Positions 38,384 through 63,378 of a DNA stretch of 64,000 bases are shown in pieces. The stretch is from an uncultured virus (IMG/VR IMGVR_UViG_2049941000_000086). Its lineage: Duplodnaviria; Heunggongvirae; Uroviricota; Caudoviricetes. The DNA is taken from IMG/VR virus record IMGVR_UViG_2049941000_000086; one strand, 5' to 3'. The notes under the pieces were generated by a model that was given only the letters and a program-made list of their open reading frames with translations, searched no databases and was not told the DNA's origin. A program made the position numbers and the translations under genes. How positions within the stretch are numbered: the stretch's first letter is position 1; every line of letters begins with the position of its first letter.

Positions 38384-38388
38384 TGTAC

Positions 38389-45069: not shown

Positions 45070-46134
45070 TCAGGAAAAGAAGCTGCCTAGGACGTCGTCT
45101 TCGTCGTCGGGCTTAATGGTTACCGCTTCCTTCACCGGCTCAAAGGCCACGTCCTGCGCGGTCGGCTCTGCGGATTCCTTCTTGGGTCGTCCGCGTCCCT
45201 TCTTCACCTGCTGGTCAGCCTCGACCGAGGCTTCGCCGTCCACCGTTCCTTCCGTGTCCGAAGGGTTAATCTGGACGCTCTGCTCCCTAATCTCCCCGGT
45301 TCCGGGGTCCACGTTCATCACGTCGAAGGAAGCGAGGGCTTCCGCGTCCTTGGCCTCCTCGTCCTCGCGCTCAAGGACCGTGTCGATGTTGGTGATGGCG
45401 CGGAGCTGGACGTAGCCGCTGTTCAGCAGACGGCGAATGACCGTCTTTTTCATCATGGTCTCGGTGGCCGAATACCACGGGCTTTTCTTCTTAAGCCGCT
45501 CCGCCTCCTCCGGGCTGAGGTCGCCGCTGATAAGCTGGCGGTATTTGGAACGGTCGAAAGTCTTGGAGTACTGCTCGGCGTGATCGAGAATTGCGCCGAG
45601 GCTCATGTACTCAGAGCGGAAGAAGCCGTCCTTTTTCTCAACGTAGGCGTAGTAGCCGATGATGGGATGCTGCTCCGCTTCCTCGTCCGTGGCGTAGATG
45701 GAGAAGTCAAACTCCGGGCGCTTCGTCCGGCGGTTGCGTCCGACGTACTCTCCCTCACGAATTTCCACGCAGTCCATGTCGGCCACGTCGCCGCCCGCCA
45801 TCGCCATTGCGATGAGACCCTTGTATGAAATCTGGAAGCTGGCAGTCCCGGCGTAAGGAACGACATAATAGCCCATGCCGAGCATGAGACCCATGCCCTC
45901 GCCCCGGAGAGCCGCCGCCACGATGGAGGCGGGATTGCAGTTCTGGAGTTCCGTGCTGGAAACCACAAGGGAAATCAGGCTCCCGGTCAGACGGGCGGCG
46001 CTTTTGGCGTCCGGCGTGGCTTTCTTAATCATGCCCTGGAGGGCGTTGCCCTGAATGGCAACGGAGAACTTTTCCTGCTTGTTTACGATAGCGCCATTTC
46101 CGCTCGTGGTAAGCGCGTTGTTAGGTCTAGCCAA
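45070..46134 (-). CDS. recT: RecT-family recombinase
   Basis: CNPASI, YVVPY..FQISYKGL, MMKKTVIRRLL. Confidence 0.9.
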   Translation of the reverse strand: MARPNNALTTSGNGAIVNKQEKFSVAIQGNALQGMIKKATPDAKSAARLTGSLISLVVSSTELQNCNPASIVAAALRGEGMGLMLGMGYYVVPYAGTASFQISYKGLIAMAMAGGDVADMDCVEIREGEYVGRNRRTKRPEFDFSIYATDEEAEQHPIIGYYAYVEKKDGFFRSEYMSLGAILDHAEQYSKTFDRSKYRQLISGDLSPEEAERLKKKSPWYSATETMMKKTVIRRLLNSGYVQLRAITNIDTVLEREDEEAKDAEALASFDVMNVDPGTGEIREQSVQINPSDTEGTVDGEASVEADQQVKKGRGRPKKESAEPTAQDVAFEPVKEAVTIKPDDEDDVLGSFFS

Positions 46135-46140
46135 TGTAAG

Positions 46141-46716
46141 TCATCCTTTCACATTGAAATCTTTTCTCAGCTTTCGCTGTATGCTTTTTATCCGGTCGTT
46201 TGCCCAAGCGTCGGAATGGCCGAACGCCTTTCCTATTCCCGTCTTTGGCTTCCCGTTCATCCGCATGAGGACAATCTTCTTTTCCTGTTCCGTGAGCCTT
46301 GCGTCGAGGTACATTTCCAAGAGCAGTTCTTCTGCCGATCTCTCGGCGTTCCAATCGACCAGCGCGTCTGCATATCGGACTTCCGTGTCTCCGCCCTCGT
46401 CATGGAGGAGAGATTGTTCCAAAGAAATGTCCCCGTCTGGCGTCCGCGTCCTTTCTCTCCATGCCGCGATGATGCTGTTCCGAATTACCGGGGCGGCAAA
46501 AGTGGCGAACTTCAGGTCGCGTGAATCGTCAAATGCAAGGGACGCTTTCCAGAGTCCGATATAACCGTCCTGAATCGTGTCGTCCGTCACCTTGATGGCC
46601 ATGTTGTTGGCGATATACGGGACCAGCTTCATGTTCTCCAGAAACAACCCCTCGGCTTCTTCAAGGCTACGCCGACACCCGCTTTGCTTTTTCGGAGGCT
46701 CGCTTTGCCCGGTCAT
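46141..46716 (-). CDS. sigma-70-family sigma factor
   Basis: NMKLV, QDGYIGLWKA..FD..KFATFA..IRN; region-4 HTH. Confidence 0.85.
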   Translation of the reverse strand: MTGQSEPPKKQSGCRRSLEEAEGLFLENMKLVPYIANNMAIKVTDDTIQDGYIGLWKASLAFDDSRDLKFATFAAPVIRNSIIAAWRERTRTPDGDISLEQSLLHDEGGDTEVRYADALVDWNAERSAEELLLEMYLDARLTEQEKKIVLMRMNGKPKTGIGKAFGHSDAWANDRIKSIQRKLRKDFNVKG

Positions 46717-47047
46717 ATTCTCTTTGCCTTTCGTTGATAGCTTCCCGGTGCTTGGCTCGGTAGGCAGCGTCCGCAATACGTTTCTGCTCTCGGTGGGTCT
46801 CGCGATACTGCCTACGGTACTCGCTGTCCCGGCGTTTTCTCTCTTCTTCTTTTTTGAGCTCATCTGCGCTTTTCGGGAGACCTGTTTCCTTTGCCCGGTG
46901 CTTTCTCTTTCCCGGTTCAGGAATGTAGTCTCGCCTATTTATCTCCCGTCTTTCCTCCGCCGTAAGCGGAAGTGCTTCGCAAATGATATCCCAAAGGAAG
47001 ATGCTCTCCAGTTCCTCCGGGGAATAGTGGTTGTTGACGCATGACAT
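46667..47047 (-). CDS. basic hypothetical protein
   Basis: YRETHRE/YRAKHRE repeats; AGGAG RBS. Confidence 0.55.
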   Translation of the reverse strand: MSCVNNHYSPEELESIFLWDIICEALPLTAEERREINRRDYIPEPGKRKHRAKETGLPKSADELKKEEERKRRDSEYRRQYRETHREQKRIADAAYRAKHREAINERQREYDRAKRASEKAKRVSA

Positions 47048-47058
47048 GTTACCAACTC

Positions 47059-47496
47059 CTAGAATTTCCGCTTGGCATACAACGCGAGGAGACAGGCTTC
47101 TGCGCAGTTGTCGTCGTCCTTCTTGCTGAGTTCCGTCCGTTTCAGGTTCACGCCCGGGAACAGCCGCTTGCAGACCTCCACGCTCTGCGCCTTGTCCGAA
47201 GTAAGCCCGAATTCTTTTTTCCAACGCTGTGGCATGATGGGCTGGTACGATATGCCGATAGCGTCAAGCATTCCCAAAAGCCAGCCGTAGGTAGTCCCGA
47301 AGTTAAACGAAGAAGTGACTCCGTTGCCATGAAGCGCGTGAACCTGTTCGATGCAGCAGACGTGCGGGAAGTTCTGCTTGATGTCTGTCAGATAGCGGAT
47401 ATACCTTTCTTTGTTAAAAGGGATTACCGCAACATCGTTATCTTGGATTGCCGCCATCGCGCCTTTCGCGCCGGGGTCAATGCCTATCCAAATCAT
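47059..47496 (-). CDS. RuvC-like Holliday junction resolvase
   Basis: IGIDPG, CIEQV, FNFG..YG, PQRWKK, AEACLLA. Confidence 0.85.
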   Translation of the reverse strand: MIWIGIDPGAKGAMAAIQDNDVAVIPFNKERYIRYLTDIKQNFPHVCCIEQVHALHGNGVTSSFNFGTTYGWLLGMLDAIGISYQPIMPQRWKKEFGLTSDKAQSVEVCKRLFPGVNLKRTELSKKDDDNCAEACLLALYAKRKF

Positions 47497-47687
47497 TTCT
47501 TTTCCTCCCGGAATACCTTCCCACCCAGATACAGCTTGTATCCCGCTTTCCGCAGTTCGTCGCGCCGCGCCCGGTCGGGGTAGCAGGACGGGTAATCGGT
47601 CTGCGCCATCACCGCCCCCTGCGCGTTCCGTACTTCAAACCGTGCCCCCTTCTCCGGAAGGGGGATTTCCTTCTTCCGCACCGCCAT
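47493..47687 (-). CDS. hypothetical protein
   Basis: 64-aa coupled ORF. Confidence 0.6.
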   Translation of the reverse strand: MAVRKKEIPLPEKGARFEVRNAQGAVMAQTDYPSCYPDRARRDELRKAGYKLYLGGKVFREEKK

Positions 47688-47691
47688 CGTC

Positions 47692-48630
47692 TCAGCCCTC
47701 GATCTTCTCGAACCAGATGCCGATACGGTCGAACGCCGCCCGAAGCTCTACGAGCTGACTGCGGGTAGCCCGGACACGGAACGCCAAAGTGTAGACGTTC
47801 TCCTTCGGCACTTCGCCGTGCTGGTAGACCGTCTGCTCCTGCGCCGGAGCGGGTTCATCGTCCAGCTTGTACTTCGCCGCCTGCGCCTGTGCCGCAGCCC
47901 TGGCCGCTTCCTGCCGCGCCTTTTCCTGTTCCTCGGCTTCTTTCCTTGCCGCTTCCGCTTCCCGCCTGCGGGCTTCCTCAGCTTCCCTGCGAGCGTCCTC
48001 GCGGCGCTTGGTTTCCGCAAGCTCGCCGTTCATCTTCATCACGGCGGCGAGGTCGTGGTTCTTGGCGTAGGCTGTCAGAAGCGTCGCTTCAAATTCGCTA
48101 CCGAGACCACGGATGGCATCCACTCCGTCGGCGCACATGTCCATCGCCTGAGCAATTTCCTGTTGGGCCTGCTCCACGGTATAGGTGACGTTCCCCCACT
48201 TGGGGTTCTGCACCTGCTCGAAGGACAGATAAGGGGCAAGCGTTCCGATGTTGTCATCGAAGAAAGTCCGAAGGCCGGCCAGCTTCTCCGCCTTGCGCTG
48301 TTCGACGTATTTGTTGATCTGCTCGCTGAGGTTGGTCTCGCTCTCGTAGCAGACGGCGGTGAGCGCCTTGCACTTTTCTTCAAATGCCGCCAAGGGCGCG
48401 GTGAAGTCCCGCTTGATGCTCTTGCGGTAATCGTCGATGGTCTTTTCCACCTTGCGGATACGGGCCAGCACATTCTTCCCTTCGACTACGTCTTCCTCGC
48501 GGAGAACCATCTTTTCATAAGGGGCCATCAGCTCCCGGAGCTGGGATTCCACTTCCGCAAAATTTGCGGTGAGGATCGTCTCCTTGATCGGCGTCAGGTC
48601 CGTCGTCAGCTTAAATTCCAGATCAGGCAT
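47692..48630 (-). CDS. DUF1351-like coiled-coil protein
   Basis: NFAEV..Y..RKSIKRDFTAPLAAFE pattern; next to YqaJ. Confidence 0.7.
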   Translation of the reverse strand: MPDLEFKLTTDLTPIKETILTANFAEVESQLRELMAPYEKMVLREEDVVEGKNVLARIRKVEKTIDDYRKSIKRDFTAPLAAFEEKCKALTAVCYESETNLSEQINKYVEQRKAEKLAGLRTFFDDNIGTLAPYLSFEQVQNPKWGNVTYTVEQAQQEIAQAMDMCADGVDAIRGLGSEFEATLLTAYAKNHDLAAVMKMNGELAETKRREDARREAEEARRREAEAARKEAEEQEKARQEAARAAAQAQAAKYKLDDEPAPAQEQTVYQHGEVPKENVYTLAFRVRATRSQLVELRAAFDRIGIWFEKIEG

Positions 48631-48868
48631 CCGCTTTCGCCTCCTCCGGCATGACCTCGACGATCTCCTTGCACTTGAAGCCGGGTTCCGGGCAGTTCAC
48701 CGACACCACGACGGCCTCACTCCGATCGCTCTTGTAGGTAGGGGCATAGACCTTCTGGCCCAGCCGCAGGTTCAGCTTCGTCTTGTAGGTATAGGTCTTT
48801 CCCGTGGTAACGCCGTCGCTGGCCGTGTACTTGACCTCGACGTACTCGAATCCGTCATACTGATTCAT
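48623..48868 (-). CDS. hypothetical protein
   Basis: YTYKT..L..GQKVYAP motif; AAGGA RBS. Confidence 0.6.
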   Translation of the reverse strand: MNQYDGFEYVEVKYTASDGVTTGKTYTYKTKLNLRLGQKVYAPTYKSDRSEAVVVSVNCPEPGFKCKEIVEVMPEEAKADA

Positions 48869-48885
48869 TCTTTTCCTTCCTTTCT

Positions 48886-49533
48886 TCAAAACCGTATCGG
48901 TGCTCCGGGGCGCTTCCCCGTCTGTACCGATTCCCAAAATTCTTCTTCCTGCTGAAGTAGCCACGCGAGATCAGCTTCATGCTCGCTGCGTTCGATAACG
49001 AATGCGTCCTTCAGGGTGATATCCCCGTTCATGTGCCACAGGGCCGGTTGCAGTACCACAAAGTCCCATCCGGTCGCAAGCAGTTGGTGGATGCACTGGC
49101 AGTAATACGCTTGAGGTATTTGACCGTCCCACTCTCTCCATGCCTCCCGGCTGTTTGGGGCAGAGGTCTTAATCTCCAAAATTCCGTTCCGACCGTCAGA
49201 AGATGTAATCTGCCCGTCAAGCGTCGCAAACAGCCAGGGCCGTTCCTCCTGATACAGAATGTCGTAGGGGTGGTACTCAATCCCGTATTCCGGGTGGAGG
49301 GCGGCGTAGAAGCCTCTCACAGCGGCCTCCATCAAATGCCCTCGTCCAACGTAATCCTTGCCGCTGATATCCTTCCGTTCCCTGCGCCCGGTGTGGATTT
49401 CCCAAAGTTCGTTTTTGGTCATCCACTTGGACATCCCGCAGACCGCCGCCGCCTCTGAAGCGCCCAACCCCCGCTCTGCTCGTCCCGCCAGCCAGGATGC
49501 CCGGTCAGGGTAACTAATTCGTTGGAGTGCCAT
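48886..49533 (-). CDS. YqaJ-like exonuclease
   Basis: GLGASEAAAVCG, ATLDG, LEIKT, YYCQCIHQL. Confidence 0.92.
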   Translation of the reverse strand: MALQRISYPDRASWLAGRAERGLGASEAAAVCGMSKWMTKNELWEIHTGRRERKDISGKDYVGRGHLMEAAVRGFYAALHPEYGIEYHPYDILYQEERPWLFATLDGQITSSDGRNGILEIKTSAPNSREAWREWDGQIPQAYYCQCIHQLLATGWDFVVLQPALWHMNGDITLKDAFVIERSEHEADLAWLLQQEEEFWESVQTGKRPGAPIRF

Positions 49534-50177
49534 TACGCCTGCATCACGTCAACGAGGTGGTAGCGCCCGTAGCCGCTGGTCCGCCCGCTGCCGATACCGA
49601 GACCGAATCCGGCGAGGTTGATGAAGCTGCAAAGTTGGTCGAGGCTGTAAACGTGGTCGGTGTAGTCCATCTTGAAGACGGCTTTCCAGCCGGAGAAGTG
49701 GCTGAGGCGCGTAGTGATGGGGGCACCGCGCTTCGGGGACATGAGGGTTTCCTCCAGCGTCCACTTGGCGAATGTGATGGGCACCAGGTTCCGCATCGCC
49801 ACGATGTTCACGGCGTTATCGACCTTCGTGGCGTACTTGTCGATCTCATTGCGGACGACGGCCTGACCGAAGGACTTCTTCAAACCGAAAGCGGAAATGC
49901 AGGGGGCGTTGTCTTTCAGCAGGGACTTGAGCATGGCTTCGTCACAGTCCTTGTAGGTGTCGGTGGTGGGCAGATCGTCCCGCCAGTGAATCGCGGTGAT
50001 GATGTCCTCCCAGGGGTTCGGGACTTCCCGGACCTTCTTGCGGTCGTCAGCCATCAGAGCGCGGCGATTCCGGGCGTTCATCTTGTTCAGGACGAGATCG
50101 CCGTCACCTTCGATGGTGATGATTGCGTGCTTGATCTTGATGGGTTCGATTTCGAGAATGTTGGCGTCCTTTTTCAT
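49533..50177 (-). CDS. solo RAMP/Cas7-like protein (Vipr-like effector candidate)
   Basis: ITIEGDGDLVL first strand, PCISAFGLKKS (cf. PxIPxSSLKG), C-terminal Gly loop AGFGLGIGSGRTSGYGRY. Confidence 0.75.
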   Translation of the reverse strand: MKKDANILEIEPIKIKHAIITIEGDGDLVLNKMNARNRRALMADDRKKVREVPNPWEDIITAIHWRDDLPTTDTYKDCDEAMLKSLLKDNAPCISAFGLKKSFGQAVVRNEIDKYATKVDNAVNIVAMRNLVPITFAKWTLEETLMSPKRGAPITTRLSHFSGWKAVFKMDYTDHVYSLDQLCSFINLAGFGLGIGSGRTSGYGRYHLVDVMQA

Positions 50178-50210
50178 GGTTTGCCGTTCTCCCTTTCTGA
50201 TTTAGAATTG

Positions 50211-50953
50211 CGCTCATGGGCGCGAGAATGACCTGTAATGTTGTGTCCTGTGCTATAAGGAACTGTTGTTGCTAGTAGTATTCCTTTGTATCCAGCAGTG
50301 TGTATATGGCGTTACAGGCCATTCTCCCGCCCGTGGGCGGTGTCCCCGGTCATCGTCGAAAGCTCGATGTTTTGTCATGCTGCGTTCTGTCCTCTGCCGA
50401 AGTGACATAGGCAAAAGTCAACTGTCTGCTGCGATTCCGTATCGTGCTTGGAGAGCATCAAGCCCTCGACGATGACCGGGGCGGTGATGTTTGTTCCGGG
50501 TTATGCTGTATTGTTCTGGTCTATCGCGTAATGACTTGTGCTGTGCTTTACTTTATTTTTCTGTACGGTCTGTGGTCGCTCCAGAGAGCGCCGGGAAAGG
50601 TTCTACCTTCTGTTATAGTGTGCTATCGTATAGTCTTGTCTTATAACCTGTTGTGAATTGACAAGTCCGCTGTTGCCATGATTGATACTGTTGAAAGTGA
50701 ATTTGTGATTTGAAGGGAGAGCCCTTCCCGGTGTCCTCTGTTTTGTGCTGTAATGCAGGATAGTAAAGCGTTCTCGGCTGTTACGTTCTGATTTGTACCG
50801 AAGTGCGATGCGCTTGCACGGCGAGTGCGCGGAACGCTCGTTTTGATTTATAGTGTGTTGTTATGTCTCACGCTGTTATTTCGTGAGTAAAGGTGTTCAA
50901 TCCGTTTTTGCAGGATTATTTGTTGGGAGCCGAACGCTCCGCGCACTCGCCGT
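50211..50953 (-). ncRNA. guide-RNA-like array: four ~27-30-bp stems and six tracts of NN+ACA-like pentamers
   Basis: Inverted repeats 50211-40/50310-39, 50344-72/50453-81, 50584-610/50712-38, 50818-44/50927-53; YGT-NN periodicity on the + strand; strand inferred from the flanking genes. Confidence 0.8.
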
Positions 50954-50959
50954 CAGAGT

Positions 50960-51466
50960 TCACGCCGTCTTGGATAGTTCCTCCACCGCCTCAATCAGCC
51001 GGGTCAGTTCCGCCCGGTCTTTGAGGATGCTGTATTTTCGCTGAAAAGCCAGCAGTTCACTCAGGGCTGATTGGAGAAGCCGCTGATATTCGTCGTCGTT
51101 GCGGACGGTGAATTCGATGGACCTGTACCCACGTTCCTCCTCGTTGCTTTCGGAATCAACGCCGCCGGACAGGTGGAATATCCTGACGGGTTCTGATACT
51201 TCGTCGTCGCTTTCTGCCGTTCGGATAATCAGGTGGTGGACGATGGTTCTTGCTTCCTGCTTGCGCCACTTTTCGGCGGCGGCATCGTTGTCCCATGTGA
51301 AGCACTTGTGAAGCTCCGTCGCTTCGTCCCGCGCTTTCTCTACGATTTGCTCCGGCGTTGCAGTGTCACCGATGCTTTTGATTTCCCGATAGACGCCCTG
51401 TGCGTTCGCTCCGTGGAACAGGCACTCAAAGCGCGGGTCCCAGCTCGCTATCAGTTCTCCCCTCAC
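50960..51466 (-). CDS. hypothetical protein upstream of the array (accessory candidate)
   Basis: TPEQIVEKARD..LHKCFTWDNDAAAEKWRKQEAR motif; GGAGG RBS. Confidence 0.75.
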   Translation of the reverse strand: MRGELIASWDPRFECLFHGANAQGVYREIKSIGDTATPEQIVEKARDEATELHKCFTWDNDAAAEKWRKQEARTIVHHLIIRTAESDDEVSEPVRIFHLSGGVDSESNEEERGYRSIEFTVRNDDEYQRLLQSALSELLAFQRKYSILKDRAELTRLIEAVEELSKTA

Positions 51467-51686
51467 TTTCTTCCTCCTTCTGAATCAGCCGATACCTGGC
51501 GTACCGGCAAGTATCGCCGTCGCTGTTCTTTCCTTCTTCCATCGTGGTGACGATGTTGTGGCCGAGCCTTTTCAAGTCGTAAATTCTTCCGGAAAGTCTG
51601 GTGCAACGAAAATGCTGGATGGCTTCCCAGCTCGTGATGCTTCCGTGCTCCTGAAGGTAGGCCAGGATCTTTTCGCTGTCGCTCAT
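51426..51686 (-). CDS. winged-HTH protein (HTH_39-like)
   Basis: ILAYL..GSITSWEA..CTRLSGRIYDLK..G..I..YARYRL. Confidence 0.75.
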   Translation of the reverse strand: MSDSEKILAYLQEHGSITSWEAIQHFRCTRLSGRIYDLKRLGHNIVTTMEEGKNSDGDTCRYARYRLIQKEEESEGRTDSELGPAL

Positions 51687-52306
51687 GCTGTCACCTCCAA
51701 TTTCTTCGCCGCCGATCTTTCCCGGTCCTTCGCCCGGATTTCCTCCCGGTGCTTCTCCCGCCATCGCCGCTTGTATTCCCTTATCTGCTCCTTGTGAGTG
51801 AGGCGGTACATTGCCCGGTAGGCAGCTATCTCGTCCTTGTGTTCCTCCGCATATCGGCGGAACCGTTCGGCGTACTGCTCCTTGTTTGCCTCGTAGTGCG
51901 CCTTGTGGTACTCCGCCAGTTCTTCCCGGTGGGTCTCGCGGTAAGTACGACCTCGCTCTTTCTCTTTCTCAGGTTCAGCTTCGCGCACTGCCTTTGCCCG
52001 CTCAAGCACGGTCTCACGATTGGCGGCGTACCATTCACGATGCTTGGCATTGATTTCCTCGCGGTGGGCTGCACGGTAGGCTTTCTTCTTCTCGTGGATC
52101 TCTTCCCGGTGATCGTTGTGATACTTCCGTGAGCGGAGCGCCGCTTTCGCCGCCTTGGGTTCTCTCCGCTCCTGGCGGATCTCCCAGTCCATTTGCCTCG
52201 CGGCTTCGTACTCTTCCCGGTCAAAGGCGAGCTGCCCTTCGATTTCCGCATCGTATGCCGCCAGTTCTTCCAGTTCTTCCGGGGTAAATGGGATTAAGGC
52301 ACTCAA
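51683..52306 (-). CDS. hypothetical protein with YxxxHREE helical repeats
   Basis: Repeated Y/W-x-x-x-H/N-R/K-E units. Confidence 0.65.
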   Translation of the reverse strand: MSALIPFTPEELEELAAYDAEIEGQLAFDREEYEAARQMDWEIRQERREPKAAKAALRSRKYHNDHREEIHEKKKAYRAAHREEINAKHREWYAANRETVLERAKAVREAEPEKEKERGRTYRETHREELAEYHKAHYEANKEQYAERFRRYAEEHKDEIAAYRAMYRLTHKEQIREYKRRWREKHREEIRAKDRERSAAKKLEVTA

Positions 52307-52464
52307 CCAAGAATCACCACCCCTCGGACGATCATCACCGCCGCAAACAGGAGCAGCCCCCACACGCCGCCGCAGATGNNNNNNNNNNNNNNNNNNNNNN
52401 NNNNNNNNNNNNNNNNNNNNNNNNNNNNNNNNNCATCAATGATGCGCTCTTCTTTGTCATTCAT
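52303..52464 (-). CDS. small membrane protein (N gap)
   Basis: Hydrophobic C-terminus; coupled to its neighbours. Confidence 0.45.
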   Translation of the reverse strand: MNDKEERIIDXXXXXXXXXXXXXXXXXXXICGGVWGLLLFAAVMIVRGVVILG

Positions 52465-53024
52465 TGCGCCACCGCCCTTGCTACCGCCGTCTTGGTGACG
52501 CGCCCTGCGGGGAAATCGTACCGGCGCTTCACGGTTCGTGGGTTCACACCGAGCCATTCCGCGNNNNNNNNNNTTTCGGAGTGAAGAATCAATTCACGCC
52601 CCGGAAATGCTCTATCAAGGCTGGCGAGCGCATCGTGAAATCCGGCGAACTTGCTGACGTCCACGTTTCTTTCTTTGCAAGGTTCTCTTGGTGATTGCGG
52701 CTTTCTGGCGCTTGGGTCTGGTATGAGACCCATTTTCATGGCGTGACGGACGTTTTCACTCGGCGTTACCCATTCCAGATTTGACACATTGTTATGGTCC
52801 TTAACGCCATCAATGTGGTTGACTTGCGGCTTGTTCTCCGGGTTTGGAATAAAGGCTTCGGCGACAAGACGATGAATGCCCTCCATCTTTATCCCGTCCC
52901 ATACAGTCCGGTATCCGCGCCGCCATCCAATAGTGGTCTCCGCTTCTACACCGTAAACGAGCTTTCTCACGGTCCCGTCTTCGTAAACCCGAAGTCTGTC
53001 TCCGCGCATGTCCTTGTATCTCAC
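52461..53024 (-). CDS. HNH endonuclease fused to an HTH-like C-terminus
   Basis: [40 protein letters not shown]. Confidence 0.75.
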
Positions 53025-53242
53025 TCTTTTGCGTCCTCCCCTCTCATGAATCGGACGAACGCCCGCTTTGGAATCTTGACTCGGTTTCCTGCGATGATAG
53101 TACGGAACCCAAGGAGTTCTGGCCTCTCCCGCGCTTGCTGCCGGATGGTATCCGCATTGGCCCCAAGGATGTGAGCCACGTCAGCGCAAGTCAGAACTTC
53201 CGTAGGCATTGACTCGATCTGTTCAAGAGTTCGGGCTACCAT
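53021..53242 (-). CDS. excisionase-like HTH protein
   Basis: [25 protein letters not shown]. Confidence 0.7.
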
Positions 53243-53447
53243 CTGCGTCTTCCCCCATTCTCGAAACAAGCCTGTCCAAAGCGTCCCTCAACTTGGATTC
53301 TGCTTTCTGAGATACGGCCTTTCCGTGAAGAAGCTGGCTTACATATTTCGGGTTGAGTTTTGCTTCTTCTGCGACGTCCCGAATCTTCAACCCGGCGTTG
53401 TGTATGTCTCCGATGAGTTCGCCGGTCCACTGAGCAGGCATATTCAA
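53223..53447 (-). CDS. Cro-like HTH regulator
   Basis: DVAEEAKLNPKYVSQLLHG; GGAGG RBS; divergent from the repressor. Confidence 0.8.
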   Translation of the reverse strand: MNMPAQWTGELIGDIHNAGLKIRDVAEEAKLNPKYVSQLLHGKAVSQKAESKLRDALDRLVSRMGEDADGSPNS

Positions 53448-53472
53448 TCTAACCTCCTTCCACTTTTAATAC

Positions 53473-53501
53473 TTGACTTTGGTTAGGTGCTGGGTTAGAA
53501 T
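53473..53501 (+). promoter_or_regulatory. sigmaA-type promoter toward the repressor
   Basis: TTGACT-17 nt-TAGAAT. Confidence 0.6.
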
Positions 53502-53581
53502 AGCTATGCCAGTAACTAAATCTAAGCCCAGCGGCCTAACCATGTCCGGCTGTCTTCTTACCGATTTCAGCTTTCCCCTCC

Positions 53582-53609
53582 ATTATACTAACTTGGGTAA
53601 GAATTGCAA
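53582..53609 (-). promoter_or_regulatory. sigmaA-type promoter toward cro/lytic genes
   Basis: TTGCAA-16 nt-TATAAT on the minus strand. Confidence 0.6.
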
Positions 53610-53665
53610 GCCAAAAATCTTATTTTGGTTAGGTTCTACTTTCTGCACAAAAATGGGGGTGCGTT

Positions 53666-54190
53666 TTGGTGTTTTTTCACATATTCGGTGCATTGTGCGA
53701 GAGAAGTGGGGAGTCTAAGAGTGCTGCTGCAAAGGCGTGTGGTCTGAGCAATTCCACTGTTACTAAATGGAAGAAGACCCAGGCAGTACCTGAGTCTTCA
53801 ACGCTAATGAAGATTGCGGAGCACTTCGGCGTCACGATGGATTACCTTCTCGGTGCTACGCCGGAATCCTATCTACTCGGCACAGAGTATCAATTAAAGG
53901 AAGCTGAAAAGGCATACGGCAAAGAGACCGACCCAAATGAACGTGAAAGACTTGGCGGCCTAATTGACTTCTTGCGCGATTCCGTATCCGATCAACGAGC
54001 ATTGCTCTCTGCAACAAAAATACCCGCCACCGAAAGTGGTGACGGGAGTGATGATACTAGCGATAAGTCAGAACTCATGAATCTTTATGATTCTTTTGAT
54101 TCTTCCGATCGCGCTCGGCTTTTAGCATTCGCGCAAGGGCTAAGACTTTCTCGTATTCCTCATGAGAAAGTTCCTCCAAAAGACGCTTGA
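53666..54190 (+). CDS. CI-like XRE repressor
   Basis: AAKACGLSNSTVTKWKK..P..TLMKIAEHFGVTMDYLLG. Confidence 0.88.
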   Translation: MVFFHIFGALCERSGESKSAAAKACGLSNSTVTKWKKTQAVPESSTLMKIAEHFGVTMDYLLGATPESYLLGTEYQLKEAEKAYGKETDPNERERLGGLIDFLRDSVSDQRALLSATKIPATESGDGSDDTSDKSELMNLYDSFDSSDRARLLAFAQGLRLSRIPHEKVPPKDA

Positions 54191-54218
54191 ACTCGGTTCT
54201 CATTTCTTCATCGTTCAT
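54075..54218 (-). CDS. 47-aa antisense ORF overlapping the repressor 3' end (antirepressor candidate)
   Basis: AAAGGAGG RBS 7 nt before ATG; helical MNDEEMRTEFKRLLEELSHEEYEKVLALARMLKAE. Confidence 0.6.
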   Translation of the reverse strand: MNDEEMRTEFKRLLEELSHEEYEKVLALARMLKAERDRKNQKNHKDS

Positions 54219-54357
54219 AGCATTTCCTCCTTTGGTATTACTGTAACACGTTCCTTTGTCGAATAAGCTCAGAAGGTGTCTTAGCTTCGTTTGATTTTCT
54301 TGTAAACTGAGTATAGCACATACTGGTGTACGATTAAACGGACACCAAAAGACGCAT

Positions 54358-55554
54358 TTGCGTCGCTTGAAAGGTGGATTGTCGTTGGTCTGTATCAAAT
54401 GCGGGGCCGAAGTCGCTGATGCTCCATTCTGCGGTAAGTGCGGTGCAAGGCAAGAAAGAGTCGTGCCTAAATCCCGTGGCTTGAAAAAGCGTGGCAACGG
54501 CCAGGGTTGCGTTTACAAACTTCCGAACGGGAAGTATCAAGCTATCGTCACGCGGGGGTACGTTTTGGACGAGAACGGTAAGCGTCATTTGAGACGCCGG
54601 ACCAAGGTGTTTGACAAAAAGAAAGACGCTATCCTTGCTTTGCCAGACCTGATGCGTGAACGCCAATCCGAAACAGTACGTCTCTGGACGTTCAAGGAAG
54701 TATTCGATAAATGGATACCAACGCACAAGGCAGGAAAGTCTACCATAGGCAATTACAGCGCCGCCGTCAAATACTTTGACACTTTGTTCTTTGTCCCGTT
54801 TGCTGATATAGACATTGACGACTTGCAGGAGTGCATAGACGATTGCCCACGAGGGCGAAGGACAAAGGAAAACATGAGAGCTTGCGCAGGACTGATGTAT
54901 AAGTTTGCCATCCCGCGCCATGCCACGCGAGATAACCTAAACCTATCGGAATACCTGTCCGTTGACGGGGACGCTGCGGCACACCGGAGTTCGTTTGATG
55001 ACGCTCAGATACGTCAGATAATCAAAGCGGCGCAGAGCGGAACTGTACCCTACGCCGAAGAAGTTATGTGCTTGGTCTTCCTTGGATTTCGACCGTCAGA
55101 GTTTCTGGAACTCACCGATGAGAGCTACAACAAAGAAAAGAGGTGCCTTACGGGTGGAGCGAAGACAGAAGCCGGTAAGGGTCGAACTGTGACGGTCTCT
55201 CCTTTAATTCTGTCGTTCGTCGAATCAAGGGCTGAGAGCAAAGGTCCGCTATTCAGAAACCCGGATGGGAAAACTTGGGGGCTGAAGCACTTTACGGAGA
55301 AAGCCTTTTACCCGGCTCTTGAAGCCATTGGGATCGAGAACCCTATCGTCACCATCGGAGGAGGACTCAAACGCCATAAATATACCCCCCACTCCTGCCG
55401 ACACACCTTTGCCACATTGATGAAGAAGGTAGAAGGTGCGGAGAAAGACAAGTTGGAACTGATGGGGCACACGTCCGGCGAAATGCTCCGATACTACCAG
55501 GATGTTGGCGTGGAAGACCTCCGGAAAATCACCGACAACCTTTGGAAAGCCTGA
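54358..55554 (+). CDS. tyrosine integrase with N-terminal zinc ribbon (likely start TTG ~54385)
   Basis: CxxC..CxxC, RGNGQG arm-binding motif, GFRPSE, KTEAG, HSCRHT, MGH..YY. Confidence 0.93.
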   Translation: MRRLKGGLSLVCIKCGAEVADAPFCGKCGARQERVVPKSRGLKKRGNGQGCVYKLPNGKYQAIVTRGYVLDENGKRHLRRRTKVFDKKKDAILALPDLMRERQSETVRLWTFKEVFDKWIPTHKAGKSTIGNYSAAVKYFDTLFFVPFADIDIDDLQECIDDCPRGRRTKENMRACAGLMYKFAIPRHATRDNLNLSEYLSVDGDAAAHRSSFDDAQIRQIIKAAQSGTVPYAEEVMCLVFLGFRPSEFLELTDESYNKEKRCLTGGAKTEAGKGRTVTVSPLILSFVESRAESKGPLFRNPDGKTWGLKHFTEKAFYPALEAIGIENPIVTIGGGLKRHKYTPHSCRHTFATLMKKVEGAEKDKLELMGHTSGEMLRYYQDVGVEDLRKITDNLWKA

Positions 55555-55899: not shown

Positions 55900-56202
55900 T
55901 CAACCAGTCCCTTCCTTTTTTGCTTTTTTCTTCCCAACCCTCAGAGAGCATATTTCCAATTTTGGGTTTATTCCCCATTCTTGGAGGAGGATTGTCTTGC
56001 GGGTGCTACTCAAGGGCTTAATACCTTTATCGCGCAGGATTCCCAAGCGCCGCTCGTGCTCGGCTTTGTCAAATCCGCATCCAACGCAGCCGCCGAGTCG
56101 GCTGCACTCACGCTCGTTTCGGACGCGGCCATTCTCTCCGCATAGGCAGTTTGGCTTGGGGGATGTCTCCACTTCGGTGTATTGCGGGATATAGATGCTC
56201 AT
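55900..56202 (-). CDS. Cys-rich hypothetical protein
   Basis: C..C..CVGCGF. Confidence 0.65.
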   Translation of the reverse strand: MSIYIPQYTEVETSPKPNCLCGENGRVRNERECSRLGGCVGCGFDKAEHERRLGILRDKGIKPLSSTRKTILLQEWGINPKLEICSLRVGKKKAKKEGTG

Positions 56203-56459
56203 TCGTCGTCACCGTCCTTTGTGGGATATTCAAAAGGGGGGAAGAAGTTCCGCCAGTCATGGCCGTTCAGGAAGTCGATGATCTCGTCTCGCTCCTTTTC
56301 CAGCCGCATAACTTCATCACGGATTTTCTCGGCTCTGACGGCCAGCGCCGCAACGACGGAATCAGGCAGAGCTTCGCAAAATAGTTTGCGCTTCCTTTCC
56401 TCGTCCGACAAATCTCTGTAGTCGGTAGAGACCAAATCATAATAATCTTTGCTGGGCAT
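56199..56459 (-). CDS. hypothetical protein
   Basis: GGAGG RBS at MPSKDYY. Confidence 0.6.
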   Translation of the reverse strand: MPSKDYYDLVSTDYRDLSDEERKRKLFCEALPDSVVAALAVRAEKIRDEVMRLEKERDEIIDFLNGHDWRNFFPPFEYPTKDGDDE

Positions 56460-56649
56460 GGCGCTGTTCCTCCCCTCTGGCGTTCCAGTCGCGGACCGCC
56501 TGCATCTTTCCACCGTTGACCCAAGGGTGATAGTTCTTGCAGTTCTTGCAGCCAACCCACCCGTGCGGGAACGGTTTATATACGTTCTTCTCCTGCCCCT
56601 TGGCTCCGCAGGCGGGGCAATCGTTCAAGGCGTATGATTGTCTTGACAT
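56437..56649 (-). CDS. Lar-like zinc-ribbon protein
   Basis: LNDCPACG..VGCKNC..AVRDWN. Confidence 0.6.
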   Translation of the reverse strand: MSRQSYALNDCPACGAKGQEKNVYKPFPHGWVGCKNCKNYHPWVNGGKMQAVRDWNARGEEQRHAQQRLL

Positions 56650-56786
56650 CTTCCGATGACTTCCTTTTCGATGACTTCAGCCGCCGCGCTGAGAACATCC
56701 GGTAGCGTGATGGGAACTTCCCAAAGGTTCGCCTCAGCCCACTCCGCGTATTCACGGAGCCGATCTACAAGTTCTTGCATAGACAT
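56625..56786 (-). CDS. hypothetical protein
   Basis: LREYAEWAEANLWEVPITL. Confidence 0.55.
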   Translation of the reverse strand: MSMQELVDRLREYAEWAEANLWEVPITLPDVLSAAAEVIEKEVIGRCQDNHTP

Positions 56787-56790
56787 ATCA

Positions 56791-57282
56791 TCACAACCCT
56801 TCCGGACGCTGAATCCCGATCTTCGCAAGCAGTTCCCAGTTGGCTGGCTTATACTCGTTGCACCATTTTTGTACTGTCGATTTGTGGACTCCTATGAGAT
56901 TTGCAATTTCCTCGTATGTGGCGTTGTTTTTTTCCTTGTATTCGACGATTGCCGCTCTCTGTCTTCCCTGTGCTTTCGCCTTGTATTCTTCAGAAGCAAT
57001 CCGCCTGCGGACACGCTCGCGGTCATAAGGCTTTACGTCCGGTGGTAGTTCTCTTCTCGGTCTTCCCTTTTTCTTCGGCTCCGGTGGATCAGGTTTCGCC
57101 TTTGCCGACGCCGCAAACAAGCTTGGGACATACCGTTTCTTGCTGCCAATCAGACGCTTGGTACACCCGTCGCCTGCGGGGCATCTGCGGGCTTTTCCGG
57201 CAACGTAGTTATAGTCGCAGCATTTGCCCTTCGAGGTTGTTCCAAGGTAAATACATCCCTTGCAGTATGCGTCAACCGGCAT
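56791..57282 (-). CDS. Cys-rich plus HTH protein
   Basis: CKGCIY..CCDY..CPAGDGCT; TYEEIANLIGVHKSTVQKW. Confidence 0.7.
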   Translation of the reverse strand: MPVDAYCKGCIYLGTTSKGKCCDYNYVAGKARRCPAGDGCTKRLIGSKKRYVPSLFAASAKAKPDPPEPKKKGRPRRELPPDVKPYDRERVRRRIASEEYKAKAQGRQRAAIVEYKEKNNATYEEIANLIGVHKSTVQKWCNEYKPANWELLAKIGIQRPEGL

Positions 57283-58135
57283 CGGTATCTACCTCCAGTT
57301 CTGCCATTTGGGAGATCGTCTCCTTGATTCTCGTCACTGCTATTTGGTAGTACCGTTCGTCAAGCTCAATACCGCAAAAGCTGCGTCCAGTATTCAGTGC
57401 CGCGACGCCCGTGCTGCCTGAACCCATGCAGAAGTCCAGCACCACGTCTCCTGGGTCTGTGTAGGTCTTAATAAGCCATTCTTCCAACCTTACGGGCTTC
57501 TGCGTACTGTGATAGGCTCCGCGCTGTTTGTCCGTCGAATATGTGAGAACGCTCGTAGGATACCGCTCCGTCGAGTCGTAGGAAATCAAGCCGTATTCGC
57601 CGTAATCCGTACTCATTTTAGAATTGCGCTTGTGGTCTGCGGTGCTGACCTTCCGTTCGTGGCCGTATGTCTTTTGCGGGTGGTATGTGACCGGAGTTTT
57701 CCGGTAGAAAATGCAAATATCTTCGTGCGCCCTGAGCGGCATCCGGTTTGCATTGAGAAATCCCGTCGGCGTCGTTTTGTGCCAAACAAGGTTGTAGCGC
57801 CAGTCTTTCGGATTACTGTTCATCAGCTTCGCTGTGAACATGCCGCCGGAGTGGAGGGCAATGACTGCGTTTTTCTTGCAAACACGATGCAGTTCTTTCC
57901 AGAGCTTATCCATCGGAAGGGGAACGTCCCATTTGTTTCGTGTTGCCTGATAAGGCGGGTCGGCAAGCACCATATCAACGCCGTGATCGTGGAAGTTACT
58001 CAGTTCCTCGATGCAGTCGGCACGGACCAGGTTAATGAACTGTGCGCGATTCTCACCGTAGAACCGTATGAAGTTCGCTTGGTGATCTCCGATCAGATAT
58101 TCCCAGCTACCTATTTTCTGCCACACGGTCATCAC
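57272..58135 (-). CDS. beta-class N6A/N4C DNA methyltransferase
   Basis: DPPY, HSTQKP, VLDFCMGSGST, GIELD. Confidence 0.92.
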   Translation of the reverse strand: MMTVWQKIGSWEYLIGDHQANFIRFYGENRAQFINLVRADCIEELSNFHDHGVDMVLADPPYQATRNKWDVPLPMDKLWKELHRVCKKNAVIALHSGGMFTAKLMNSNPKDWRYNLVWHKTTPTGFLNANRMPLRAHEDICIFYRKTPVTYHPQKTYGHERKVSTADHKRNSKMSTDYGEYGLISYDSTERYPTSVLTYSTDKQRGAYHSTQKPVRLEEWLIKTYTDPGDVVLDFCMGSGSTGVAALNTGRSFCGIELDERYYQIAVTRIKETISQMAELEVDTDAG

Positions 58136-58380
58136 CTCCCGACCACAACTTCAAACCCGCCGCCCTGTTTGCAGCGAAGGAATGCCAGAGGGTTGTCCCG
58201 CAGCAGTTCACGGTTCTCGATCATGCAGTCGATAGCCTGCTCTATCGTTTTCGCATTGAGCCGCATCTTGTGGCGCTTCAGATCTTCCGCAAAGGCGGCG
58301 TCAAGCTGGTCCCTCACTTTAAGAAGGGCGGTGGTAAACCCGTGGTTGAATCCGAATTCCATGCGTTCCAATTCCGTCAC
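58132..58380 (-). CDS. hypothetical protein
   Basis: 82-aa coupled ORF. Confidence 0.6.
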   Translation of the reverse strand: MTELERMEFGFNHGFTTALLKVRDQLDAAFAEDLKRHKMRLNAKTIEQAIDCMIENRELLRDNPLAFLRCKQGGGFEVVVGR

Positions 58381-58381
58381 C

Positions 58382-59297: not shown

Positions 59298-59442
59298 CGT
59301 TTTCCCACCATCCTATGCTCAGTTCTCCGGTCAGCACGTTGCGCAATATCTGCACCGTTCAGTTGGTATGCAGTTCCAGTTCCTCGTAGAGATTCACTTC
59401 GACGGTTTCTTCCTCTTCCGGGGTCACGGTCTCGTCATTCAT
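59275..59442 (-). pseudogene. small conserved-looking ORF with in-frame TGA
   Basis: ..LYEELELHTN*TVQILRNVLTGELSIGWWEN..; coupled at both ends. Confidence 0.5.
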
Positions 59443-59863: not shown

Positions 59864-59884
59864 TGGTGTCTCTCCTTCGTTTAT

Positions 59885-61610: not shown

Positions 61611-61645
61611 ATAATGCCGGTCTATTCCCGGCAGGCAGCGATGTC

Positions 61646-62362: not shown

Positions 62363-62373
62363 CTGTTACCTCC

Positions 62374-63376: not shown

Positions 63377-63378
63377 CG

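What the first reader, a model, noticed from the sequence alone, without database searches (positions are those of the whole stretch)
50234..50308. Guide 1 decodes to an ImmA/IrrE-like HExxH motif
Minus-strand dinucleotides CA AC CT GG CA GA CT AG CA GT TT GC GG CA TT read as NNx codons give [HQ]-T-L-G-[HQ]-[ED]-L-[SR]-[HQ]-V-[FL]-A-G-[HQ]-[FL]. This is compatible with TLGHELxHVLAGHL, resembling the TLAHELGHxxxGH zinc site of ImmA/IrrE metallopeptidases that control prophage and ICE induction. I saw no such gene in this window, so the target is foreign or elsewhere in the genome.
Basis: partly seen in the sequence, partly recalled or inferred. Interest (0 to 1): 0.8.

Follow-up and report, generated by a model that had tools for sequence, protein, structure and literature searches.

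The report
Phage VIPR-like guide RNA array
The flagged stretch is one guide in a rumen prophage's array of guide RNAs of the recently described VIPR kind, built on an unusual ACA spacer, and its decoded target most resembles the zinc site of ImmA/IrrE-type switch peptidases, though no near-perfect target was found.

Summary

The stretch is the last guide of a 780-nt non-coding array (50178-50959). The array lies between a 168-aa accessory gene and a 214-aa protein whose predicted fold is Cas7/Csm3-like.

The design matches VIPR systems (2026 preprints), but with an ACA/NN scaffold instead of GGY/NN, and with guides lying inside and between long stems.

In 80 related viral loci:
- 79 carry such stems.
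- Period 5 is very strong (z=45).
- Stems are conserved while loops are hypervariable.
- The NN dinucleotides match codon positions 1-2 of the sense strand (r=0.92).
- One guide hits rival vipr genes at 22/24 under the 1-nt-skip rule only.

So reading NN as NNx codons is justified. The ImmA/IrrE target is plausible but unproven:
- Guide 1 scores 14.8 bits on a Peptidase_M78 site profile, and 0 of 379,577 null windows reach that.
- Two real repressor-linked M78 genes match 22/26 and 21/26, but the pattern that found them was tuned towards the M78 consensus.
- Exact and seed searches found no close target.

My odds for an M78 target are about 0.55.

The parts
50960..51466 (-). 168-aa accessory gene (vap-like; phrog_15946), upstream of the array
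   Evidence: PHROG hit 5.3e-17, no Pfam. A homologue lies upstream of the array in 78 of 80 related loci. AF2 pLDDT 76.4 and no Foldseek PDB match at E<=1e-3. No similarity to SUSP1 vap1.
50178..50959 (-). Non-coding vrRNA-like array: four long stems and six period-5 guide tracts
   Evidence: Four inverted repeats. RNA fold -255.9 kcal/mol against -176.6+/-8.3 in shuffles, z=-9.6. No Rfam match at E<=1. Mismatches in stems of relatives are G.U on this strand, 810 against 229 A.C.
50841..50930 (-). Guide tract in the loop of stem 4 (arms 50818-50840 / 50931-50953)
50741..50817 (-). Inter-stem guide tract, about 15 units
   Evidence: Register score 1.63. Inter-stem tracts of the family are period-5 and codon12-like, r=0.874.
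50611..50711 (-). Guide tract in the loop of stem 3 (arms 50582-50610 / 50712-50740)
50482..50581 (-). Inter-stem guide tract, about 19 units; strongest period-5 signal of the window
50370..50455 (-). Guide tract in the loop of stem 2 (arms 50344-50369 / 50456-50481)
50239..50311 (-).
   Evidence: An RNA-library contig of 233 nt covers 50148-50380 with 3 differences, a weak hint of expression.
49533..50177 (-). 214-aa stand-alone RAMP (Vipr-like, Cas7/Csm3 fold) with invariant G-loop AGFGxGIGSGRxSGxGRY
   Evidence: 2305 homologues, none named and none with Pfam. AF2 pLDDT 84.2. Foldseek top hits are all type III Cas7, 6s6b_I at E 2e-5. VIA Z 9.2/8.9/8.1. hhalign to SUSP1 Vipr covers the G-loop region only, prob 32%.
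49587..49622 (-). Site in the window's own RAMP gene (I-N-L-A-G-F-G-L-G-I-G-S) matched 20/24 by a rival phage's guide
   Evidence: guide from L024/L025.

Best explanation
Coordinates 50234-50308 (minus strand) hold the RAMP-proximal guide of a VIPR-like system carried by a rumen prophage. The module is: a 168-aa accessory gene, a 780-nt array of guide RNAs, then a 214-aa Cas7-fold protein.

Each guide is a run of about 10-19 pentanucleotides, A[C/T]A-NN. By analogy with published VIPR (inferred here), one protomer binds each repeat and hides the fixed triplet. The NN dinucleotides then pair with double-stranded DNA, skipping every third target base, which is the codon wobble position. The bound gene of a rival mobile element is silenced.

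The fixed triplet here is ACA, not GGY. Guides sit inside and between 23-29-bp stems rather than before a pseudoknot tail. All guides read like the sense strand.

Guide 1 decodes to x-T-L-G-[HQ]-[DE]-L-[SR]-[HQ]-V-[FL]-A-G-[HQ]-[FL]. Its most likely target (my odds about 0.55) is the HExxH site of an ImmA/IrrE-type Peptidase_M78 gene paired with an XRE repressor in a competing prophage or ICE. Silencing it would interfere with that element's induction switch.

Shown here: the anatomy, the periodicity, the RNA strand, the protein fold, codon-like NN composition, and one in-register anti-vipr target. Inferred: RNP formation, DNA binding, silencing, and the identity of Guide 1's target.
For: - Anatomy.
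- Conserved three-part module: stems in 79 of 80 loci against 2 units in shuffles; accessory gene in 78 of 80.
- RNA strand: 810 G.U against 229 A.C mismatches.
- Period 5: z=45; unit profile.
- Hypervariable loops between conserved arms: 168 of 571 pairs, with indels in multiples of 5.
- Cas7/Csm3 fold.
- NN equals sense codon positions 1-2: r 0.923, KL 0.0225 bits, bootstrap 1000/1000.
- Only skip 1 gives a hit of 0.85 or more among skips 0-7 and controls.
- That hit is the G-loop of rival vipr genes at 22/24, against 19/24 on the guide's own vipr. There are 50 in-frame sense hits at 80% or more and 0 out of frame.
- Published VIPR mechanism: 10.64898/2026.04.26.720920 sections 4, 10, 26, 27; 10.64898/2026.04.26.720927 abstract and section 5; 10.64898/2026.10.15.759431 abstract and section 8.
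- Guide 1 and M78: profile score 14.8 bits, reached by 0 of 379,577 null windows; other guides score at most 5.9.
- M78 genes L260 (22/26) and L259 (21/26) match in sense and in codon register, each just downstream of an HTH_3 gene.
Against: - My profile of the RAMP finds nothing in phage SUSP1, and hhalign gives only 32% probability over 51 C-terminal columns. Homology with published Vipr therefore rests on fold and G-loop.
- Only 1 of 144 guides (11 or more units; 172 distinct guides in all) found a target in the 1.65-Mb local set. Overall the skip rules did not differ from shuffles.
Seed hits had random flanks. 0 of 406 genomes matched within 3 mismatches.
- Over all 15 units the M78 genes match only 22/30.
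- Guide 1's score lies in the low tail of true M78 sites (leave-one-out minimum 12.6, median 21.7). It disagrees with the consensus at G4, S/R8 and A12.
- The pattern was loosened towards the M78 consensus. By my arithmetic, chance alone gives about 4 matches of 21/26 or better anywhere in 0.6 Gb.
- SNPs of a close variant are not enriched at NN positions (9 of 19, p=0.33).
Confidence: 0.8

Rival explanations
1. The system is VIPR-like, but Guide 1 targets another gene family. Its [HQ]-[DE]-L-[SR]-[HQ] core can also be read H-D-L-R-H (the tyrosine-recombinase box), Q-D-L-R-Q and so on. The likeness to M78 would then be coincidence.
For: Each of three key positions has two readings. The metagenome seed hits read HDLRQVLAGQ and QDLRQVFAGQ. 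No M78 allele reached 90% match. Published VIPR targets include excision recombinases (10.64898/2026.10.15.759431, abstract).
Against: The eight HxLRH[TS] recombinase sites held here score at best 15/30, with P(mean)=0.08. The metagenome hits have random flanks and poor coding context. The M78 profile score is unmatched by 379,577 null windows.
Confidence: 0.3
2. Guide 1 has no current target. It could be a decayed or drifting tract, or a decoy that only loads the protein.
For: 7 of its 16 scaffold triplets depart from ACA/ATA. No target was found in any collection searched. A related phage carries a different tract, net 5 nt shorter, in the same stem.
Against: The published work notes frequent internal degeneracy of working vrRNAs (10.64898/2026.04.26.720920, methods). 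The tract is unchanged in a variant that differs at 35 places elsewhere in 50023-51494. Its decoded sequence is strongly protein-like and M78-like.
Confidence: 0.1
3. The array is not a guide system. The A/C-rich period-5 tracts would be binding tracks for an oligomeric RNA-binding protein, as in TRAP with its GAG repeats, or a sponge. The NN positions would then be merely unconstrained.
For: This was my first reading. Period-5 triplet repeats with free spacers resemble TRAP sites (recalled). The rules did not separate from shuffles in the first local scan.
Against: Unconstrained NN would not reproduce sense codon-position-1-2 dinucleotide frequencies beyond their marginals (residual r 0.824). 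It would not give a 22/24 in-register hit at skip 1 only. Loops are replaced between identical arms. The partner protein has the Cas7 fold.
Confidence: 0.05

Closest known systems
VIPR systems, type II (Escherichia phage SUSP1, Pseudomonas fulva prophage); bioRxiv 10.64898/2026.04.26.720920 and 10.64898/2026.04.26.720927
   Same: Phage-borne. A small stand-alone RAMP of about 20 kDa with a G-loop, plus one accessory gene. Guide RNAs made of about 9-16 pentanucleotides with three fixed and two hypervariable bases. NN read against DNA with one base skipped, at the wobble position. Guides aimed at rival elements, including rival vipr genes. I confirmed the GGYNN arrays of SUSP1 at 27618-27966 and 29164-29236.
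   Different: The fixed triplet is A[C/T]A, not GGY. The G-loop has S-G-R where SUSP1 has D177-W178-R179, the contacts of G1, G2 and Y3 (720927 section 5). Guides lie in and between 23-29-bp stems instead of before a pseudoknot tail. Gene order is accessory-array-RAMP. The accessory protein is unrelated to vap1. NN are sense-only here, whereas both strands are reported there. Sequence homology is barely detectable.
Non-canonical VIPR-like clusters (bioRxiv 10.64898/2026.10.21.760802; passages seen by term search)
   Same: That preprint reports 21 clusters (6,318 sequences) of period-5 arrays with other fixed triplets (GAC, CAC, WGT, TGH), about 10 repeats each, next to a Vipr-like fold. ACA/NN read on the opposite strand is TGT/NN, with the third base T .70, A .12, C .11. 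That fits TGH/NN.
   Different: I could not see its Fig. S10 or its supplements, so identity with this family is not verified. The passages I saw give no strand assignment, targets, skip-rule test or stem architecture for these clusters.
Type III CRISPR Cas7 backbone proteins (Csm3/Cmr4)
   Same: Best structural matches of the 214-aa protein: Foldseek E 2e-5 to 1e-3, VIA Z 8-9. It also has a GhGxxxxxGhG-like G-loop.
   Different: No CRISPR array or other cas genes among the 60 window ORFs scanned. No hit to Cas7 sequence models. Guide period is 5 with a fixed triplet, not 6 with one flipped base.
ImmA/IrrE Peptidase_M78 with ImmR-type XRE repressor (proposed target, not part of the locus)
   Same: The decoded Guide 1 shares T2, L3, H5, E6, L7, H9, L/F11, G13, H14 and L/F15 with the consensus F-T-L-A-H-E-L-G-H-x-L-L-[HG]-x-L of 34 sites. 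Real M78 genes next to HTH_3 genes match 21-22 of 26.
   Different: Guide 1 has G4, S/R8 and A12 where M78 sites mostly have A, G/A and L. No allele with these residues was found.

Membership tests
VIPR system | Small stand-alone RAMP (RRM core, G-loop, thumb) outside a CRISPR locus | tested here: met
   AF2 pLDDT 84.2. Top Foldseek and VIA hits are Cas7/Csm3/Cmr4. Invariant G-loop. No cas genes among the 60 ORFs scanned. The thumb was not examined residue by residue.
VIPR system | Sequence homology of the RAMP with published Vipr proteins | tested here: inconclusive
   The HMM of A1 finds nothing in SUSP1 at E<=10. hhalign to SUSP1 ALH47069.1 gives prob 32%, E 4.7e-4, over 51 C-terminal columns including the G-loop. 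UniProt X1U2U4 was not available.
VIPR system | Adjacent RNAs of tandem pentanucleotides with a fixed trinucleotide and a hypervariable dinucleotide | tested here: met
VIPR system | Fixed trinucleotide GGY (or the listed variants NNNGG, YNNNG, NNNNG) | tested here: not met
   The unit is A .70 / C .54 / A .79 / N / N on the RNA strand, and G is the rarest base of the loops at 0.147. So this is a variant, not a canonical member.
VIPR system | NN pair with the target under the 1-nt-skip rule, with the skip at the codon wobble position | tested here: met
   NN composition equals sense codon positions 1-2. One guide hits rival vipr at 22/24, at skip 1 only among skips 0-7 and controls. This is computational only and rests on one target family.
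VIPR system | Conserved 3' tail (pseudoknot) after the repeat tract | tested here: not met
   Tracts are bounded by arms of long-range 23-29-bp stems. No pseudoknot was sought.
VIPR system | Protein-RNA filament, dsDNA binding, transcriptional silencing | not testable with these tools
   Needs biochemistry. The only hint is an RNA-library contig over 50148-50380.
ImmA/IrrE Peptidase_M78 as target of Guide 1 | A natural M78 gene whose HExxH region matches the guide at 80% or more of NN, in register | tested here: inconclusive
   L260 matches 22/26 and L259 21/26 on the 13-unit guide defined beforehand, both PF06114. Over 15 units the match is 22/30. The search pattern was loosened towards the consensus. 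Unbiased searches found none.
ImmA/IrrE Peptidase_M78 as target of Guide 1 | Decoded guide scores as an M78 zinc site above chance | tested here: met
   14.8 bits. 0 of 379,577 in-frame null windows reach it (maximum 14.4). Leave-one-out true sites range 12.6-29.7. Shuffled-guide test: P(mean)=0.039, P(max)=0.16.

The most novel reading that the evidence does not exclude
This is a separate, not yet characterised VIPR type of gut and rumen Clostridia phages, a family of over 2,000 proteins. Its RAMP reads ACA instead of GGY, with S-G replacing the D-W pair of the G-loop. Its guides are packed inside and between long stems that probably serve as processing sites. Its guides all carry the sense of the coding strand. 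That points to strand-specific action on the template strand, or to a directional way of writing new guides from rival genes.
Probability: 0.35. Interest if true: 0.75.

Novelty: new variant of a known kind. Interest (0 to 1): 0.6.

Why it matters
VIPR was described only in 2026, and in its canonical form it reads GGY/NN repeats. This locus shows the same non-contiguous, wobble-skipping code on a different scaffold (ACA/NN) and a very divergent Cas7-fold protein. The family is large and entirely unannotated, in phages of Oscillospiraceae, Lachnospiraceae and their relatives.

- It offers a natural test of how the protein chooses its fixed triplet: S-G-R against D-W-R in the G-loop.
- It shows a different way of arraying and probably processing guides.
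- It shows a sense-only bias not reported for the canonical systems.

For the finding itself: if Guide 1 silences a rival's ImmA-type anti-repressor protease, the phage would be blocking the induction switch of a competing prophage or ICE.

Tried and rejected
- Rfam scan of 46000-55000 at E<=1: no match.
- Period-3 reading of the DNA itself: no match.
- First idea, TRAP-like protein track or sponge, MazF-ACA decoy, retron or DRT template, ssDNA promoter: dropped after the fold result and the codon test. No RT was seen among the ORFs scanned.
- PDB sequence search, NCBIfam and PADLOC for the RAMP: nothing, apart from Cas11a at E 0.039, which I ignored.
- Local 1.65-Mb target scan with skips 0-3 and all guides: no difference from shuffles.
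- Sliding 12-unit windows including inter-stem tracts: only the anti-vipr hit stands out. A 21/24 hit of an L048 guide on window 23462-23497 is at shuffle level.
- Conserved guide of the L061 cluster, 22 specified bases, exact in viral contigs: 0 hits.
- Guide 1 seeds in viral contigs. Units 4-11 gave 2 hits, units 1-8 gave 19 hits (about 11 of them one related locus, out of coding frame), and units 8-15 gave 9 hits. All had random flanks.
- Guide 1 seed of 10 units in metagenome contigs: 2 hits, with flanks 3/10 and 2/10, not peptidases.
- Tyrosine-recombinase reading: weak.
- tblastn of the RAMP against 50,697 cultured-phage records: only E>=0.2 hits, for example Gordonia phage ODay gp19 at 21.6% over 95%.
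- SNP phase in a close variant: not enriched at NN.
- No whole genome is held for this window, so the host chromosome could not be searched.
- Parts of 49400-51500 without RNA-library cover say nothing.
- Earlier-findings look-ups gave nothing relevant.
Full report
**Setting.** The window is mostly a prophage.
- An integrase lies at 54358-55554 and an XRE repressor at 53666-54190.
- Early genes run on the minus strand: HNH, wHTH, then the module studied here, then YqaJ exonuclease, DUF1351, a RuvC-like resolvase, a sigma factor and RecT.
- Replication, tail and lysis genes follow further down.
- A second phage-like element starts at about 55.9 kb.
- The DNA occurs in bovine gut metagenomes.
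- No whole genome is held for the window.

**The observation.** The other three letters are mostly ACA or ATA. They are not adjacent codons in the DNA, since a period-3 regex finds nothing. The decoding [HQ]-T-L-G-[HQ]-[DE]-L-[SR]-[HQ]-V-[FL]-A-G-[HQ]-[FL] is correct by the standard code.

**Anatomy.** The stretch is the loop of the last of four long inverted repeats in a 780-nt non-coding region, 50178-50959.
- Arms are 23-29 nt and 79-91% complementary. Loops are 73, 86, 101 and 90 nt.
- As RNA of the minus strand the region folds at -255.9 kcal/mol, against -176.6+/-8.3 for shuffles (z=-9.6, 0 of 20 shuffles as good). All four stems form.
- Rfam has no match.
- Not only the four loops but also the two stretches between stems (50482-50581 and 50741-50817) are in-phase runs of A[C/T]A-NN units. 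The window therefore holds six tracts.

**The protein partner.** The gene just downstream (49533-50177) encodes 214 aa with no Pfam, NCBIfam or PDB sequence match.
- It has 2305 homologues at E<=1e-3. None has a Pfam domain, and the only names given are 'hypothetical protein'.
- A 20-sequence alignment shows an invariant C-terminal AGFG-GIGSGR-SG-GRY.
- The AlphaFold model has pLDDT 84.2 and pTM 0.78.
- By Foldseek it matches only CRISPR Cas7-family backbone proteins. There are 45 matches at E<=1e-3, led by Cmr-beta 6s6b_I at 2e-5, then Csm3 of several species.
- By VIA-align the best are Z 9.2 (6s6b_I, rmsd 3.8, 151 aligned), 8.9 (9g9a_D) and 8.1 (6ae2_B Csm3).
- The gene upstream of the array (50960-51466, 168 aa, phrog_15946) has no recognisable fold.

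**Conservation.** 219 of 271 candidate stretches in the viral collection encode a relative of the 214-aa protein. I studied the best 80 loci.
- A strand-neutral stem finder found 255 stem-plus-loop units in 79 of 80 loci, against 2 units in the shuffled sequences.
- Mismatches in the stems are G.U on the gene strand 810 times and A.C 229 times. The element therefore works as RNA of the gene strand.
- The 168-aa protein is encoded upstream in 78 of 80 loci.
- In 185 distinct loops, lag-5 identity is 0.458 against 0.316 in shuffles (z=45), undiminished at lags 10, 15 and 20.
- The unit is A .70, C .54 (T .22, A .19), A .79, N, N, with 0.03-0.06 bits at the last two positions. The periodic run fills about the last 9-11 units before the 3' arm.
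- Arms are conserved while loops are not. Of 571 unit pairs with both arms at least 95% identical, 168 have loops under 60% identical, where random pairs give 0.55.
- Relatives differ by insertions of 10 or 15 nt, that is whole units.
- The 64 distinct inter-stem stretches behave the same way, with lag-5 identity 0.444.
- Hosts named on 20 genome loci are Oscillospiraceae, Lachnospiraceae, Ruminococcus, Blautia and other gut Clostridia, with a few MAGs of other groups.

**What is known.** A full-text search led to bioRxiv 10.64898/2026.04.26.720920. I read its abstract, Results, Discussion, the first part of the methods, the two target-prediction methods, and the legends found by term search.
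- It describes VIPR systems: a phage-encoded RAMP of about 20 kDa (Vipr), an accessory gene (vap), and vrRNAs of 9-16 YNNGG repeats.
- The NN dinucleotides pair with dsDNA while one base is skipped, mostly the codon wobble base.
- Targets are rival phages, satellites, lysis-lysogeny regulators and other VIPR systems.
- The listed variants of the repeat are NNNGG, YNNNG and NNNNG.
- The companion structure preprint (10.64898/2026.04.26.720927, abstract and section 5) shows one protomer per repeat. G1 is read by H17 and D177, G2 by R138 and W178, and Y3 by R179 among others.
- A third preprint (10.64898/2026.10.15.759431, abstract and section 8) reports guides against rival vipr genes with lower self-match.
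- A fourth (10.64898/2026.10.21.760802, passages only) reports 21 clusters of period-5 arrays with other fixed triplets, such as GAC, CAC, WGT and TGH, beside a Vipr-like fold. ACA/NN on the other strand reads TGT/NN, with a third base of T, A or C. That fits TGH/NN, so this family has probably been seen there. I could not see the figure or the supplements.
- Searches found no paper that describes an ACA/NN type by that name.

**Relation to canonical VIPR.** I located the SUSP1 locus (KT454805).
- GGYNN runs lie at 27618-27966 and 29164-29236, flanking a 195-aa and a 146-aa gene.
- My profile of the 214-aa family finds nothing in SUSP1 at E<=10.
- hhalign aligns only the last 51 columns (prob 32%, E 4.7e-4): the strand, the helix and the G-loop.
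- In that alignment SUSP1 G-D177-W178-R179 faces G-S197-G198-R199, which are invariant here. The SUSP1 numbering agrees with the structure paper.
- The two residues that read the guanines are thus replaced, which fits a different fixed triplet. This step is inference from a weak alignment.
- The accessory proteins are unrelated.

**Does the skip rule hold here?** Three tests.
1. *A test without any database.* The 2219 NN dinucleotides of 172 distinct guides have the frequencies of codon positions 1-2 of phage genes read in sense.
   - Pearson r is 0.923 and KL is 0.0225 bits, better than the product of their own marginals (0.0359).
   - Residuals beyond the marginals correlate at r 0.824.
   - The other five frame and orientation models give r from -0.24 to 0.56.
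   - Bootstrap picks sense positions 1-2 in 1000 of 1000 draws.
   - There is no mixture of sense and antisense guides: the variance equals the permuted value, z=0.05.
2. *A scan of 1.65 Mb of related phage and prophage DNA, with arrays masked.*
   - With all guides and skips 0-3, nothing differed from shuffles.
   - With the 133 guides of 12 or more units and skips 0-7, reversed and shuffled controls, only skip 1 gave a hit of 0.85 or better, at 0.917.
3. *The nature of that hit.* A guide of L024/L025 matches 22 of 24, in sense and in codon register, the G-loop codons I-N-Y-A-G-F-G-L-G-I-G-S of the vipr-like genes of L120 and L113.
   - On its own vipr (I-D-Y-S-...) it scores 19/24.
   - At 80% or more it has 50 hits, all in frame and in sense, including the window's own gene at 49587-49622 (20/24).
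   - Five shuffles gave 0-2 in-frame and 0-11 out-of-frame hits.
   - All these hits come from one guide, so the rule rests on one target family plus the composition test.

**Guide 1 and the ImmA/IrrE reading.**

Against:
- 8-unit seeds gave 2, 19 and 9 hits there. A 10-unit seed gave 2 hits in metagenome contigs. All had chance-level matches outside the seed, and none lay in a peptidase.
- The 13-unit pattern with up to 3 mismatches hit 0 of 5 and 0 of 401 genomes.
- The best hits in the local set are 21/30.

For:
- 4 of 172 guides are compatible with H-E-x-x-H.
- Against 34 HExxH sites from 30 Peptidase_M78 loci (30 of 61 genomes had the family), Guide 1 averages 14.79 of 30, against 12.69 for guides shuffled outside H, E, H (P=0.039). 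Its best is 19/30 (P=0.16).
- A codon-position-1-2 profile of 28 M78 sites gives Guide 1 14.8 bits. True sites left out in turn score 12.6-29.7 (median 21.7). None of 379,577 in-frame windows of the local set reaches 14.8 (maximum 14.4). No other guide exceeds 5.9.
- A pattern loosened at two bases towards the consensus, with up to 3 mismatches, hit 2 of 301 genomes of the order and 0 controls.
- Both hits are PF06114 genes (E 9.6e-16 and 2e-9), each directly downstream of an HTH_3 repressor gene.

Caveats:
- The loosening biases these hits towards M78.
- By my arithmetic, about 4 chance matches of 21/26 or better are expected anywhere in 0.6 Gb.
- Guide 1 disagrees with the consensus at three well-kept positions (G4, S/R8, A12).

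A log-odds of about 15 bits, set against a prior of roughly 1e-5 to 1e-4 for such a site among prophage codons, gives odds near even. I put 0.55 on an M78 target. A tyrosine-recombinase reading (H-D-L-R-H) fits worse: best 15/30 over 8 sites.

**Population data.** Contigs were laid on 49400-51500.
- A close variant (X5) differs at 35 places over 50023-51494. Of the differences listed, 22 lie in the array and none in Guide 1's loop.
- A more distant relative (X6) keeps the flanks but has a different Guide 1 loop, net 5 nt shorter.
- One 233-nt contig of an RNA library (X19) covers 50148-50380 with 3 differences. This is only a hint of expression, since DNA can be present in such libraries.
- The listed variant positions are not enriched at NN (9 of 19, p=0.33).

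**Verdict.**
- The named target is the best candidate but is not demonstrated.
- The element is a variant of the VIPR kind: ACA/NN scaffold, guides bounded by stems, sense-only guides, very divergent RAMP. It belongs to a large unannotated family in phages of gut and rumen Clostridia.

Noticed in passing
window 50482-50581 and 50741-50817: The stretches between the stems are also in-phase A[C/T]A-NN tracts, and 50482-50581 has the strongest period-5 signal of the whole window. Across the family, 64 inter-stem stretches are period-5 and codon-like (r 0.874). The array is therefore denser than one guide per stem-loop, perhaps like the 'staggered arrays' named in the VIPR preprint.
   Followed up: partly
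window 49587-49622; L024/L025 guide 68 nt upstream of their RAMP gene: A rival phage's guide matches the G-loop codons of nearly every RAMP gene of the family at 80% or more, including the window's own at 20/24. It scores 19/24 on its own gene.
   Followed up: yes
5' arms and loop starts, e.g. window 50300-50339; L002, L005, L007 units: The loop-proximal part of the 5' arm (GGGCTT-like) can pair either with the 3' arm or with the first bases of the loop (AAGCCC-like). This suggests an alternative small hairpin or a protein handle.
   Followed up: no
L064, L066, L067, L081 guides: Several different guides decode to related peptides around G-G-[DE]-Y, as if tracking variants of one unknown target protein. 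Two variants of the most conserved guide differ only at NN positions (T/A and S/P in the decoding).
   Followed up: no
window 55900-64000: A second phage-like element lies next to the prophage's integrase. It has two N6/N4 DNA methylase ORFs (57272-58135, 58382-58882), an HTH protein, and a protein with an Acb2/Tad1 hairpin domain (62999-63424, E 4.5e-7), a possible anti-CBASS/Thoeris sponge.
   Followed up: no
window 8205-12383: A 1392-aa minus-strand protein in the tail region carries an ALK/LTK glycine-rich domain (PF12810, E 3e-28).
   Followed up: no
window 37778-39283: One ORF combines a C-5 cytosine methylase fragment with NUMOD4 and HNH_3 homing-endonuclease motifs. This may be a methylase gene interrupted by or fused to a homing endonuclease. 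An N run lies inside it (38451-38460).
   Followed up: no
Gordonia phages ODay and Ecliptus, gene 19: Weak but full-length tblastn similarity of the RAMP: 20-22% identity over 94-95% of the query, E 0.2-2. These may be distant RAMP relatives in actinophages.
   Followed up: no
window, 17 runs of N (e.g. 41347-41606, 14635-14772, 52379-52433): Masked stretches interrupt several ORFs, so some gene calls in the window are incomplete.
   Followed up: no
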